From: a virus
Lineage: Duplodnaviria; Caudoviricetes
Length of the DNA: 64,000 nt
Reading direction: 5' to 3' (one strand)
Virus record (IMG/VR): IMGVR_UViG_3300020036_002415
Location: 6,316-70,315 of that record
In this document: piece after piece, positions 47,088 through 50,347 of the stretch
How positions within the stretch are numbered: position 1 is the stretch's first letter
Layout: each line of letters starts with the position of its first letter
The notes under the pieces: generated by a model
Told to the model about the DNA's origin: nothing
Seen by the model: the letters and a program-made list of their open reading frames with translations, nothing else
Database searches by the model: none
Translations under genes and position numbers: made by a program

Positions 47088-47226
47088 TGATGTACTTGTG
47101 TATTACAATCTGTGATGCACCATTCTCAGTTATCTTTTCAGGAGAACAAGAACAGCCTACAATACTATGTAGGCTATCCTCTCCTTTTGGAATCCAATGG
47201 TATATAAAGATCCTCAGGCCAGTCAC
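47020..47226 (-). CDS. Small His/Cys hypothetical protein
   Basis: H.IP..D..H...CSCSP...H pattern. Confidence 0.5.
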   Translation of the reverse strand: MTGLRIFIYHWIPKGEDSLHSIVGCSCSPEKITENGASQIVIHKYINGEKRNEKVQEDFKVWKLSAFK

Positions 47227-47426
47227 TACTCTTCCTCTGATTTAGAATAGTTAACCAATGAAGCAGCTTCTTCTAATTCAAGAGCCTTAATAACTGAATC
47301 GTTAATTGATTCTCTATCCGCTAATTCATCGGCAGCGATCTCAGCATTTGTTCTACGTTTACGTTTTGGAGCCTCAACTACCGGAGTAGCTTCTCTTTCT
47401 TTTATTAATTTTGCACTAATTCTCAT
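47226..47426 (-). CDS. Hypothetical protein
   Basis: ORF track; PKRKRRTNAEI basic patch. Confidence 0.5.
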   Translation of the reverse strand: MRISAKLIKEREATPVVEAPKRKRRTNAEIAADELADRESINDSVIKALELEEAASLVNYSKSEEE

Positions 47427-47430
47427 ATTT

Positions 47431-47730
47431 CTAGTATTTAAAAGTTAAACATTTTACAACATTCATCTGCGCGTCAAGGATGTCTACAATAGCTTTATTG
47501 ATTAACATATTGTGCAAAGGACTAGCATCAGCGGGAGTATTCTCAGCTAACAGGTCAGCAAGCTCAGCGCATAGAACTTTCGCTAGCAAAACTTTATCAT
47601 CACCGGATGGGTTAAATGTAATACCAACTAACTTCTCACCGAAGGTTGGGTTGTAGTATTTACGATCTAATTCTTTCTCTGGATTTTTAGCAGCCTCCAG
47701 AATAGCCTCCTTTTCTTTTTCTTCAATCAT
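47431..47730 (-). CDS. Acb2/Tad1-like hairpin-domain protein (candidate nucleotide sponge)
   Basis: GEKLVGITFNPSGDDKV..AK...AEL.D...A...I.DAQMNVVK..T pattern. Confidence 0.5.
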   Translation of the reverse strand: MIEEKEKEAILEAAKNPEKELDRKYYNPTFGEKLVGITFNPSGDDKVLLAKVLCAELADLLAENTPADASPLHNMLINKAIVDILDAQMNVVKCLTFKY

Positions 47731-47825
47731 TTCGTTTCGTTTTAAAAGTAAAAAAACCAGCCTTCGTTAAACCATCGTGAGTTCAATTCTTCAATAATCT
47801 ACTCAGGGTATCCGGCTAGCTTTTA

Positions 47826-47897
47826 TTGCGAGAGGTGGGATCGAACCACCGACCTCCGGGTTATGAGCCCGGCAAGCTACCACTGCTCTACCTCACT
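47826..47897 (-). tRNA. Initiator tRNA-fMet (CAT); CCA not encoded
   Basis: Cloverleaf; anticodon arm CCGGG-CTCATAA-CCCGG with three G:C pairs; A1:A72 mismatch; A11:T24. Confidence 0.9.
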
Positions 47898-47906
47898 AGT
47901 TGGGTA

Positions 47907-47936
47907 CAAATATACAACAATTTTTGACATATCCAA
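47907..47936 (-). promoter_or_regulatory. Bacteroidota-type promoter for the tRNA/packaging operon
   Basis: TTG-N19-TATATTTG on the minus strand. Confidence 0.7.
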
Positions 47937-48102
47937 CTAACTACGCAAAAAGTATTCAGTCAATACACCTATTTTCTTCTGTAGCCCGCGTCAATATTGC
48001 ATCTATGAAAATACCCTTTATTATGTTTCTTCCGTGTAATTCGGTTCCATAACATTGTTCCATCACTCAACAGTATGATTTTTACAAACTTCCATTGAGG
48101 TA

Positions 48103-48476
48103 TCGTATGTTTCATACAATCCAACAATGAAAACAGGCAACTAAACTTCTTTACAACATTGTACACATCGTACAATATATTTCTTTCTTTTACTTTACTT
48201 TACTTTACCTTTTCTTTGCATTACGTACGCAATACCTATGTTATGCACAAGCTATGCCTACGCATTACTTAAGCAACATCGTTGGCTAAAATACCAACTC
48301 AATCATAAGCTTCGATTTAAAGGCATGATAATTTAGCGACATAGATAATCCTATCATTCGCGTCACATAATTCAACAGGCAGCATTTAAAATGCGGAATT
48401 TCGTATGTTCCATACAAAAATAAAGCCTAATTTAGTTCCGAGTGTGTGCCTCCAAACATCGTATGTGTCCATACAA
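48103..48476. repeat. Three TCGTATG-N3/4-CATACAA palindromic repeats
   Basis: 48103..48119, 48401..48417, 48459..48476. Confidence 0.8.
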
Positions 48477-48552
48477 TAGTACCAGTACCTTAAAAAAGAC
48501 CCCCTCCGGGTAGCTATATGCGTGGGCTATGCTTAGGCATTACGTATGCATC
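48176..48552. repeat. Iteron-like repeats plus A/T-rich pentamer repeats (candidate origin/terminus region)
   Basis: GCTATGC/GCATTAC/GCAATAC units; tandem TTTAC repeats; 20/21-nt inverted match to 58093..58113. Confidence 0.55.
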
Positions 48553-49004
48553 ACCTTTGGATTTCGCGCGCTACATAAAAAGCTTCATCTGTATATGTAG
48601 GGGTACTATACTAATATAAAGCCCCCACCCGTTTCGCACAGAAAACTCTGATTTTCAGCACGTTAAACTCGATCACCTTTATTTTCGCTTCATCTGTACA
48701 TATTCGCTTATATGTCTGGCAGTCAGCGAGTTATCTGGTATTACTTAAAGCTTTTGTTTAGGTGTGGTGTGTTGTGTCTATGTTTGTTGGTTCATTACAT
48801 CTCATCTCATCTTCACTGATTATCAGTTAGTTACATTCTCCTACGCGTGCGCGTGCGTTCCATGTACTATGCACATTCACTGCTAACTTGCTGCATATTA
48901 GATATTTACATGATATATACTCTACTTTCCAACCTTTCAAACAGTCTGCACAAAACCTGAAACCCGCATAAACACTGGGCTTTTAGAATGTTTTCACAAT
49001 TTCC

Positions 49005-49035
49005 TTTGTCAGTTAGCAAATAATAACTATAATTG
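49005..49035 (+). promoter_or_regulatory. Early promoter
   Basis: TTTG-N19-TATAATTG (one mismatch to TAnnTTTG); also reads as TTGTCA-N16-TATAAT. Confidence 0.65.
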
Positions 49036-49189
49036 AATCACAACCAATCAGAACAACGGTTGCCCAGCCAAGCGAGGCGGGATATTAAGAACCGAAATTT
49101 AACGCACAGACGTTCACGTTGAAAGTTATAAGTATGCGTACCAAGCAACGAGCTTTTAAATTAGGGGATATAGATTGAATAATTAGCAG

Positions 49190-49795
49190 ACAATAATTTG
49201 TTGGATGTATAGGAGAATACTGCGCTCACTTTCGAGCCTGAGTCCTAGCCTTCAAATGGAGTCTTAAATTGCTAAGCGATTTGTGAGTATGGAGTTACCA
49301 CGAATCGGCCAAGAACGTTTAAAGTCTAGGTTTTACAATCGTACTGCACAGTATAAAATATAACATACCTGCGCTTAAACTGTAGCGCAAATTTAGCAAA
49401 CCGAACGAAAGTGAACCATTGAAATGTGGAGGAATTAGCTAGAAAGTTGAAAATTTGAAAACTATATTCATTCAACTAAAAGAGCCTAAGATAATAATTA
49501 GGTAAACTGTAGTGTCTAGATAGCTAGTAAAGTATAAACGGGTTAACCCGCTAAAAGTAAACTTATAAACCTACGAATTAGATTGTAGTTAGCAAACTGC
49601 AAAAGTCAAGCGTAAAATATTGGCGACTAATTGTAAGGAAACGTAATAAATCTAAAATTGCTATTCACATTAAACGGTAGCCCAAGTGGTCGTGGTGTGT
49701 CTTAGCGCAGTCTTGGTCGGAGGTAACACCCCGACTAAGTTATCTTATAATGTATGCATGGTAGGCTGCACTGCGCCTAACTTTAATATATATAG
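49190..49795 (+). ncRNA. ROOL-like large ornate non-coding RNA (possible 5' extension to ~49040)
   Basis: ORF-free and hairpin-dense; colinear blocks TTCGAGCCTGAGT, AATTGCTAAGCGAT, GAATCGGCCAAGAA, GAAATGTGGAGGAATT, TGTAGTGTCTA, AAAGTCAAGCGT, TTGGCGAC, AATAAATCTAAA and CTTGGTCGG/CCGACTAAG match my recollection of the ROOL consensus; not verified by covariance search. Confidence 0.78.
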
Positions 49796-49798
49796 TTT

Positions 49799-50290
49799 AT
49801 GGCTAAATTAGAATTCGAGATTGAACAAATCAATCCAGCAACAGAAAAAAGACCTGAATTGGTAACAAAATTCAAGGTGGTTATTTCATCACGTTATGAA
49901 TTAACAAGACAGTTCGTATTGTTACAAATCAAATCAAGAGTAGCTAAACTCTTATTAATGCGAGTAAAAACTAAGCAATCGTGCGGGTTAACATTGAGCA
50001 GACCAATTAACATTCGTGTTAAAATTGGTAAACGCTTCATTGAAACGGCTGAAATTTCAGAAGAAACACACCTGCAGCTCAAAATGGCTAACAATCGTGA
50101 GCGCCAAAACGCATTCTATCGTGCGCTTGATGAGATTGTTGACTATGCGATCAATGGTAAAAAAGCAACTACCCGCGATGAATTCGATGCTATGAATGAA
50201 TCACGTATCTCAATCCTTGAGCAAGAAAAGAAAGCTCGATTGGAACGTAAAGCAGCAGCATTGGCACAATTGGCAACATCACCAAACTAA
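49799..50290 (+). CDS. Basic hypothetical protein immediately downstream of the ncRNA
   Basis: 163 aa, codons like highly expressed host genes (CGT, GCA, AAA); followed by a terminator. Confidence 0.8.
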   Translation: MAKLEFEIEQINPATEKRPELVTKFKVVISSRYELTRQFVLLQIKSRVAKLLLMRVKTKQSCGLTLSRPINIRVKIGKRFIETAEISEETHLQLKMANNRERQNAFYRALDEIVDYAINGKKATTRDEFDAMNESRISILEQEKKARLERKAAALAQLATSPN

Positions 50291-50313
50291 ATCTAAGTTT
50301 TGCCATACTTAGT

Positions 50314-50347
50314 AGCCCACTTGTCTTAGGATAGGTGGGCTTTTTTA
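50314..50347 (+). terminator. Rho-independent terminator
   Basis: AGCCCACTTGTC-TTAG-GATAGGTGGGCT followed by a T run. Confidence 0.8.

What the first reader, a model, noticed from the sequence alone, without database searches (positions are those of the whole stretch)
49040..49795. ROOL-like giant ornate RNA as the first early transcript of a Bacteroidota phage
Seen in sequence: about 750 nt without an ORF directly after the early promoter, dense in stems (TGCGCT/AGCGCA 49370-89, GTTGAA/TTCAAC 49446-76, CGGGTTAACCCG 49539-50, TGTAGTT/AACTGCA 49584-601, CTTGGTCGG/CCGACTAAG 49712-39, TTAGCGCAGT/ACTGCGCCTAA 49702-80). Nine colinear sequence blocks match the ROOL consensus as I recall it. Established: ROOL RNAs were described mainly from rumen metagenomes and Firmicutes, Fusobacteria and Tenericutes elements, often near tRNAs; they assemble into RNA-only multimeric cages, and their function is unknown. 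Inference: a copy in a Bacteroidota podovirus at the very start of the early region would extend the host range and suggests an immediate-early role in host takeover or anti-defence. About 150 nt of extra 5' hairpins (49040-49190) may be an undescribed extension.
Basis: partly seen in the sequence, partly recalled or inferred. Interest (0 to 1): 0.85.

Follow-up and report, generated by a model that had tools for sequence, protein, structure and literature searches.

The report
Structured early leader RNA, not ROOL
The 760-base gene-free stretch after this phage's early promoter is a real, evolutionarily maintained folded RNA. It belongs to a previously undescribed family rather than to ROOL, and close relatives swap it together with the small protein gene behind it as one cassette.

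Summary
**ROOL is not supported.** The Rfam ROOL model and all other Rfam families give no match, even at E<=10.

**The RNA is real.**
- 49040-49798 has no coding potential under any stop-codon reassignment.
- Its differences from a close relative (L005) preserve base pairs far more than chance: 18 compensatory pairs against 4.5+-1.8.
- Two other lineages show the same pattern.

**Architecture in at least six lineages:**
- a conserved early promoter;
- 5' hairpins;
- a 0.7-1.1 kb fast-diverging structured body;
- a conserved 76-nt three-way junction 2-21 nt before the ATG (covariation 0.75 against 0.26 in shuffles);
- a homologous ~155-185 aa protein;
- usually a strong terminator.

**Cassette exchange.** Phages 95-99% identical to the window on both flanks carry a different allele of leader plus ORF.

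**Reading.** This is a new modular immediate-early leader RNA that co-evolves with its protein. It either acts in cis, or is cut free at the tRNA-shaped junction. The function is inferred, not shown. No expression data could be obtained. The host is unverified; genes lacking Shine-Dalgarno motifs fit Bacteroidota. The scan had no earlier notes on other DNA, only on this window.

The parts
49006..49033 (+). Early promoter, TTGTCA-N16-TATAAT, followed by TG
   Evidence: Best promoter-like site in the region, 11 of 12 matches. The same -35/-10 layout is conserved in L006, L007, L008, L033, L110, L115 and L023. The start site near 49040 is inferred.
49041..49081 (+). 5' module: hairpin H1 (49041-45 with 49058-62) and GC-rich hairpin H2 (49063-69 with 49076-81, loop AAGCGA)
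   Evidence: Each hairpin has one compensatory change in L005 (A-U to U-A; G-C to C-G). H2 recurs in L006, L007, L008, L033, L110 and L023 with a changed stem and an ARCG-type loop. The left cassette breakpoint against L114-L116 lies at about 49060.
49102..49700 (+). Variable structured body. A predicted long-range closing helix (49102-17 with 49686-700) encloses many hairpins, including 49370-89.
   Evidence: RNAalifold on window plus L005 gives 178 pairs: 18 compensatory, 15 one-sided, 0 broken. The null with the same substitutions placed at random gives 4.5+-1.8 compensatory pairs. The closing helix itself is invariant, so covariation does not test it. No sequence similarity to the bodies of other lineages.
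49705..49780 (+). 3' three-way junction: Pa (7 bp, 49705-11 with 49770-76), Pb hairpin (49712-39), linker plus Pc hairpin (49740-69), then CUAA (49777-80)
   Evidence: Covariance model R1 finds it directly upstream of the homologous ORF in L005, L006, L008 and L033 (the seed sequences), in L110 (47 bits, not in the seed) and weakly in L114-116 (17.7 bits). 93% of cells are paired and 9 of 12 pairs change on both sides; covariation score 0.75 against 0.26 in shuffles, 0 of 500 shuffles as high. The 7 basal Pb pairs are kept in all five checked sequences with different letters.
49799..50290 (+). First ORF (163 aa), co-inherited with the leader
   Evidence: Homologues at 22-47% identity follow every leader that carries the junction. 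No Pfam or PHROG family. Confident model (pLDDT 84) with no fold match. Differences from L005 fall mainly on third codon positions (33 of 44).
50314..50341 (+). Intrinsic terminator closing the leader-ORF unit
   Evidence: 12-bp stem followed by a T run. It is conserved at about 95% identity in L114-116 although the cassette differs. Comparable terminators follow the ORF in L005, L006, L033, L110, L114 and L117.

Best explanation
**What it is.** 49040-49798 is the long structured 5' leader of a monocistronic immediate-early unit: promoter, leader RNA, 163-aa ORF, terminator. It belongs to a previously undescribed RNA family in an uncultured group of ~70-kb phages. It is not ROOL.

**How it is built.** The RNA is modular:
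- a conserved promoter-proximal hairpin module;
- a 0.6-1 kb body whose sequence and length change quickly while its helices are kept;
- a conserved 76-nt three-way junction that ends 2-21 nt before the start codon.

**How it most likely works.** Leader and ORF are inherited and exchanged as one cassette. I therefore think the RNA works together with, or controls, its own protein. The junction would gate translation or bind the protein. The 5' hairpins would stabilise or mark the transcript. The large body would serve as a structured platform during host takeover.

**Shown:** non-coding nature, structure-preserving evolution, modular conservation, cassette exchange, and co-transcription layout.

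**Inferred:** the transcription start, early timing, any RNA-protein contact, and the biological role.
For: - No ORF under any genetic code, and substitutions show no codon phase (37/37/35). In the ORF they fall 9/2/33 by codon position.
- Compensatory changes far exceed a matched null in three independent pairs: 18 against 4.5+-1.8, 16 against 5.9+-2.1, 42 against 23.6+-3.0.
- The + strand is favoured. About 28 of the 178 predicted pairs involve G-U in at least one sequence (my count from the pair table). The consensus energy is lower than for the reverse complement (-148 against -130 kcal/mol).
- The junction is conserved and covaries across lineages, always directly before the homologous ORF.
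- No terminator lies between RNA and ORF; a strong one follows the ORF.
- L114-116 match the window at 95-99% identity on both flanks. Between about 49060 and 50279 they carry an unalignable leader and a protein only 22% identical.
Against:
- A translation gate alone would not need 0.7-1.1 kb of maintained structure.
- Distant relatives keep a long ORF-free stretch after a promoter-like site but have unrelated first ORFs (L011, L004). This suggests the RNA could matter independently of this protein.
- The protein model shows no recognisable RNA-binding fold.
- Each whole-RNA covariation test rests on a two-sequence alignment, so individual helices in the body are not established.
Confidence: 0.55

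Rival explanations
1. The RNA is released and acts on its own. The three-way junction would be a tRNA-shaped processing signal, cut by RNase P or RNase Z as at the MALAT1-mascRNA junction. This would free a 0.7-1.1 kb RNA that acts in trans as a decoy, sponge or scaffold, leaving a short-leader mRNA. It would work like ROOL or GOLLD in spirit without being related to them.
For: - Pa is 7 bp, and Pc is 5 bp in L006, L008, L033, L110 and L114. Pc runs straight into the Pa 3' strand, as the T arm and acceptor stem do in tRNA.
- The Pc loop reads UUCGAUU in L111 (a canonical T-loop by my knowledge) and UUCGCUA in L114.
- In L004 a genuine tRNA-Leu occupies this position, between a ~750-nt ORF-free stretch and the first ORF.
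- Long ORF-free stretches persist in relatives whose first ORF is unrelated.
Against: - The tRNA covariance model does not match the junction at E<=10, and ARAGORN in its standard mode finds nothing.
- The lenient mitochondrial mode of ARAGORN calls it in 4 of 8 sequences, but that mode also gives 106 hits in the 64-kb window.
- The Pc loops of the other lineages are 8-9 nt and not T-loop-like.
- No cleavage has been shown.
Confidence: 0.3
2. It is a processive antitermination cassette, laid out like lambda pL-nutL-N-tL1 or the Bacteroides UpxY leaders. The promoter-proximal hairpins, with or without the ORF163 protein, would modify RNA polymerase so that it reads through the terminator at 50314 into the remaining early genes.
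For: - The layout is promoter, a conserved short GC-rich hairpin about 25 nt from the start, a small first gene, a strong terminator, then more same-strand genes.
- The hairpin is conserved out to L023, whose terminase is only 53% identical.
- The RNA-protein cassette is exchanged while the terminator and downstream genes stay 95-99% identical.
- The comparison with lambda N/nut and UpxY rests on my own knowledge.
Against: - Known nut and put sites are under 100 nt. This reading does not explain the large maintained body or the junction at the ATG.
- The left cassette breakpoint lies at or just before hairpin H2, so specificity pairing is unclear.
- The protein shows no resemblance to NusG or N.
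Confidence: 0.12
3. It is a true but very divergent ROOL or GOLLD homologue that the Rfam models miss.
For: It is similar in size, is phage-borne, and has tRNA genes nearby at 47826-97 and 52761-834. ROOL and GOLLD are described as phage and prophage RNAs often near tRNA islands (PMC12286853).
Against: - No ROOL match at E<=10 in three searches with increasingly lax filters, nor in the whole record. No other large-RNA family matches either.
- The body is not conserved even between sister lineages of this phage group, so distant homology could not be shown.
- No positive control genome was available for the ROOL model.
Confidence: 0.02
4. It is a DNA-level or replication element. The stretch would be part of the origin, with its transcript priming replication in the manner of ColE1 RNA II or a T4 R-loop origin, or with single-stranded DNA hairpins as the selected feature.
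For: It adjoins a conserved non-coding block with short repeats at 48218-48559. It lies at the turning point of cumulative GC skew near 49000.
Against: - The skew turn coincides with the switch in gene orientation, so it does not discriminate.
- The maintained pairs include many G-U pairs specific to the + strand.
- The junction is tied to the start codon of a particular gene family.
- The cassette is swapped while the upstream repeats stay conserved.
Confidence: 0.05

Closest known systems
ROOL and GOLLD large ornate RNAs (Rfam RF03087 for ROOL; PMC12286853)
   Same: Several hundred nucleotides long, densely structured, encoded by phages, function unknown, tRNA genes nearby.
   Different: No covariance-model match at E<=10. 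No shared consensus. Here the RNA is the 5' leader of a protein gene with no terminator of its own. Its body is hypervariable, unlike a conserved fold. Multimeric cage formation is untested.
Lambda pL-nutL-N-tL1 early unit and Bacteroides UpxY leader-dependent antitermination (from my own knowledge)
   Same: Order of parts: early promoter, a short hairpin near the 5' end, a small first-gene product, a terminator, then further early genes. The RNA site and the protein travel together as a specificity cassette.
   Different: The leader is three to five times longer, with maintained structure throughout. The protein is unrelated to N or NusG. Antitermination is untested.
tRNA-like 3' processing modules such as MALAT1-mascRNA, and tRNA-mRNA co-transcripts (from my own knowledge)
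   Same: A three-way junction with a 7-bp closing helix stacked on a mostly 5-bp hairpin sits between a long structured RNA and what follows. In the relative L004 a real tRNA-Leu holds this position.
   Different: tRNA models do not recognise it. It has no D arm, and only two lineages have a T-loop-like loop. Cleavage has not been shown.
T7 early leader with the RNase III site R0.3 upstream of gene 0.3 (from my own knowledge)
   Same: A podovirus early promoter followed by several hundred non-coding, structured nucleotides before the first early gene.
   Different: The T7 leader is shorter and carries one processing hairpin. Here 0.7-1.1 kb shows compensatory evolution and cassette exchange.

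Membership tests
ROOL (RF03087) | Match to the Rfam covariance model (574 positions, gathering score 99.1 bits) | tested here: not met
   No match at the gathering score. None at E<=10 on 2.3 kb or on 0.85 kb, nor in the whole 70-kb record. The model also rang in none of the 14 control genomes, so no positive control was available.
ROOL (RF03087) | Assembly into an RNA-only octameric cage (PMC12286853) | not testable with these tools
   Needs mass photometry or cryo-EM of the transcript.
ROOL / GOLLD | Phage or prophage location, often near tRNA islands (PMC12286853) | tested here: inconclusive
   The element is phage-borne. Two single tRNA-Met genes lie 1.1 kb upstream and 3 kb downstream, which is not an island.
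GOLLD and all other Rfam 15 families | Match to any of the 4227 covariance models | tested here: not met
   Only chance-level hits (E 5.9 and 7.6) to two small RNA families fall inside the region.
tRNA / tRNA-like structure (for the 3' junction) | Recognition by the tRNA covariance model or by ARAGORN | tested here: not met
   No tRNA model hit at E<=10. ARAGORN in standard mode finds nothing. Its lenient mitochondrial mode of 8 junctions but has a background of 106 hits per 64 kb.
tRNA / tRNA-like structure (for the 3' junction) | A 7-bp acceptor-like helix running directly into a 5-bp arm with a 7-nt T-loop | tested here: inconclusive
   Pa is 7 bp in all lineages except L006, whose outermost pair is a U-U mismatch. 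Pc is 5 bp in five lineages and runs into the Pa 3' strand. T-loop-like loops occur only in L111 and L114.
New family: long structured early leader of this phage group | Conserved 3' three-way junction directly upstream of an ORF163-family gene | tested here: met
   R1 hits in window, L005, L006, L008, L033, L110 and L114-116, each 2-21 nt before the ATG. Covariation statistics.
New family: long structured early leader of this phage group | Structure-preserving evolution along the whole leader | tested here: met
   Three independent sequence pairs exceed matched nulls in compensatory pairs and in consensus energy.

The most novel reading that the evidence does not exclude
A new class of giant phage RNAs (up to about 1.1 kb), made in the first moments of infection. 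A tRNA-derived junction would release the RNA from its mRNA. Closely related phages would exchange it, together with a dedicated partner protein, as a hypervariable cassette. On this reading it is an RNA-based host-takeover or anti-defence weapon under arms-race selection.
Probability: 0.25. Interest if true: 0.85.

Novelty: new variant of a known kind. Interest (0 to 1): 0.62.

Why it matters
Very few large structured RNAs of bacteria and phages are known, and their functions are mostly unsolved. This one comes with unusually helpful context:
- a fixed place at the start of the early transcription unit;
- conserved end modules;
- a co-inherited protein of unknown fold;
- natural allelic replacements in otherwise near-identical phages.

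Together these point to specific tests: swap alleles, cut the junction, pull down the protein. It also shows that a 'ROOL-like' appearance recalled from memory can hide an unrelated RNA family.

Tried and rejected
**Family assignment**
- ROOL, GOLLD or any other Rfam family: no match at any threshold.
- I mis-remembered RF01998 as GOLLD. It is a group II intron domain model, so says nothing about GOLLD.

**Coding potential**
- A hidden gene under TGA, TAG or TAA reassignment: all frames stay closed, and substitutions show no codon phase.

**Searches for more members**
- Nucleotide search of GenBank phages found nothing. The terminase large subunit (TerL) found no cultured relative above 29% identity over a fragment.
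- IMG/VR with the ORF alone, with the ORF alignment, and with three DNA patterns gave no true member.
- GTDB genomes searched with TerL gave none, so there is no host assignment.
- blastn and nhmmer between lineages detect only the 3' domain. The bodies cannot be aligned across lineages, so no whole-RNA model was built.
- MAFFT could not align Pb or the 5' module structurally. Pb was therefore left unpaired in model R1 and checked by script.

**Protein function**
- No Pfam or PHROG family. Foldseek against the PDB and BFVD found nothing at E<=0.001.

**Expression**

**Other**
- ARAGORN in lenient modes is too unspecific to count.
- Complex prediction was not used because it cannot take RNA.

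Full report
**Setting.** The window is most of a 70,315-bp IMG/VR virus record that CheckV rates complete.
- Leftward genes include the portal, the terminase large subunit (TerL) and a 2,884-aa protein with an LPD38 domain. They end near 47730. Rightward small genes begin at 49799.
- Between the two blocks lie a tRNA-Met (47826-97, minus strand) and about 1.9 kb without ORFs.
- Only 2 of 49 genes have a Shine-Dalgarno-like motif, and the regions upstream of start codons are A-rich. A close relative carries a DUF4494 gene. Both fit a Bacteroidota host.
- Neither a cultured relative nor a genome-borne relative was found, so the host stays an inference.

**Is it ROOL?** No.
- cmscan against all 4,227 Rfam 15 families finds only the two tRNAs at gathering scores.
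- At E<=10 it finds nothing relevant on 47700-50000 or on 48980-49830, where the filters are laxer.
- The ROOL model itself (RF03087, 574 positions) gives no match at E<=10 in the whole record.
- ROOL and GOLLD are described as phage and prophage RNAs, often near tRNA islands, that form cages (PMC12286853). Only the general setting resembles that.

**Is there an RNA?** Yes.
- The stretch is non-coding under any stop-codon reassignment. Its differences from the relative L005 fall equally on the three phases (37/37/35). In the ORF they fall 9/2/33 by codon position.
- L005 is a 1,405-bp NCBI metagenome contig whose protein is 96% identical. It differs from the window at 109 leader positions.
- RNAalifold gives 178 pairs, of which 18 changed on both sides, 15 on one side and none broke.
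- When the same substitutions were placed at random 60 times, the runs gave 4.5+-1.8 compensatory pairs (maximum 9). Consensus energy was -102+-6 kcal/mol against -148 observed.
- The reverse complement does worse (14 compensatory, 7 one-sided, -130 kcal/mol), and many pairs are G-U. The + strand RNA is therefore the selected object.
- The same test succeeds in two other lineages. L006 against L007 gives 16 against 5.9+-2.1. L033 against L110 gives 42 against 23.6+-3.0.

**Relatives and architecture.**
- A TerL-based scan of metagenomes gave 58 loci.
- In the clade with TerL at least 70% identical, the first rightward ORF is a homologue of the 163-aa protein at 23-39% identity. It is preceded by 693-1,064 ORF-free nucleotides and a conserved TTGTCA-N17-TATAAT promoter.
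- A profile search of 1.8 billion proteins found 20 relatives. Their contigs added L110, L111 and L114-L116.
- Only two parts of the leader are recognisably conserved between lineages.
  1. **A promoter-proximal module.** It has a short GC-rich hairpin with an ARCG-type loop and is also present in L023, whose TerL is 53% identical.
  2. **A 76-nt three-way junction, window 49705-49780.** It consists of Pa (7 bp), a variable hairpin Pb, a UUAU...UAAUG linker, a hairpin Pc that runs into the Pa 3' strand, then CUAA. The ATG follows 2-21 nt later.
- Covariance model R1 finds the junction only at that place. It hits the five seed sequences, L110 (47 bits, E 3.5e-9, not in the seed) and L114-116 (17.7 bits, E 0.016). 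It hits nowhere else in about 0.9 Mb of related and unrelated loci.
- On the model alignment 93% of cells pair and 9 of 12 pairs changed on both sides. The covariation score is 0.75, against 0.26 in shuffles (0 of 500 as high) and at most 0.20 in slid controls.
- The bodies between the two modules cannot be aligned across lineages.

**Cassette exchange.**
- L114-L116 come from three JGI samples. They match the window at 90-95% identity over 48881-49060 (L115 and L116; L114's contig end instead carries an inverted 86% copy of 48879-49002). They match at about 95% over 50279-50346 and at 95-99% from 50527 onward (98.7% over 1.2 kb in L114).
- Between about 49060 and 50279 they share no nucleotide similarity with the window.
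- In that gap they carry a ~915-nt leader of their own, which still ends in the junction, and a protein only 22% identical.
- L006 and L007 are 99% identical upstream of the start site and 84% identical, with a 100-nt indel, downstream of it.
- L008 and L033 are 80% identical upstream. They share only the last ~290 nt of the leader.
- Leader and ORF are therefore a recombination hot spot and are inherited together.
- A strong terminator follows the ORF in 7 of 11 lineages examined.

**Mechanism.**
- No terminator lies between RNA and ORF, and the junction abuts the start codon. As transcribed, the RNA is a 5' leader.
- Co-inheritance with a fast-evolving protein suggests a co-adapted pair. I consider cis control of that protein, or binding by it, the most likely role (about 0.5).
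- Against a purely cis role: 0.7-1.1 kb of maintained structure is far more than a translation gate needs. Also, more distant relatives keep an ORF-free stretch of about 750 nt after a promoter-like site, ahead of unrelated first ORFs (L011; L004).
- In L004 a genuine tRNA-Leu sits where the junction would be.
- The junction has tRNA-like proportions (7 bp plus mostly 5 bp, contiguous). L111 has a canonical-looking T-loop and L114 a near one.
- This supports a rival in which the junction is a processing site that frees the large RNA (about 0.3). However, tRNA models do not recognise it.
- The layout also parallels lambda pL-nutL-N-tL1, so antitermination is a third possibility (about 0.1).
- The three readings are not mutually exclusive.
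- The protein model is confident (pLDDT 84) but matches no known fold.

**Limits.**
- No expression data could be obtained.
- Each whole-leader covariation test uses two sequences, so individual body helices, including the long-range closing helix, are not established.
- The start site, early timing and host are inferred.

Noticed in passing
L004:5362-5451 (minus strand): In this 70-kb relative (TerL 42% identical) a tRNA-Leu(taa) lies between a ~750-nt ORF-free stretch and the first ORF. That is the position the three-way junction holds in the window's clade.
   Followed up: partly
L112:1213-1257: Partial match to the type-P1 twister ribozyme (30.4 bits, E 0.003, cut off by the contig end). 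It lies about 300 nt downstream of an ORF163-family gene.
   Followed up: no
L117:2800-2897: A tRNA with a 38-nt insertion in the anticodon-arm region, possibly an intron or a long variable arm. It sits in the early gene block of a relative.
   Followed up: no
window 48218-48559; L011:5150-5470; L110:660-720: The non-coding block upstream of the promoter carries short repeats spaced 11 nt apart (GCATTACGTAYGCA type). Relatives carry analogous ATGCGTCCGCAT-type repeats. This block is conserved between lineages (70-80% identity) although the leader is not. It could be an origin or an operator array.
   Followed up: partly
L114:10-133: The end of this 14-kb contig is an inverted copy of window 48879-49002 (86% identity). 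This is either an assembly artefact at the contig end or a real inversion beside the promoter.
   Followed up: no
window, all genes: Only 2 of 49 genes have a Shine-Dalgarno-like motif. The regions upstream of start codons are A-rich, as in Bacteroidota.
   Followed up: partly
window 47226-47730, compared with the relative: The close relative from GCA_020051655.1 has an extra 166-aa DUF4494 gene and a 46-aa ORF between the 66-aa and ~100-aa genes. The window lacks both, so this is an indel in the leftward block.
   Followed up: no
P0011 (889 aa): A long protein matches positions 95-136 of the ORF163-family profile in six separate stretches. This suggests the motif can occur as a tandem repeat.
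   Followed up: no
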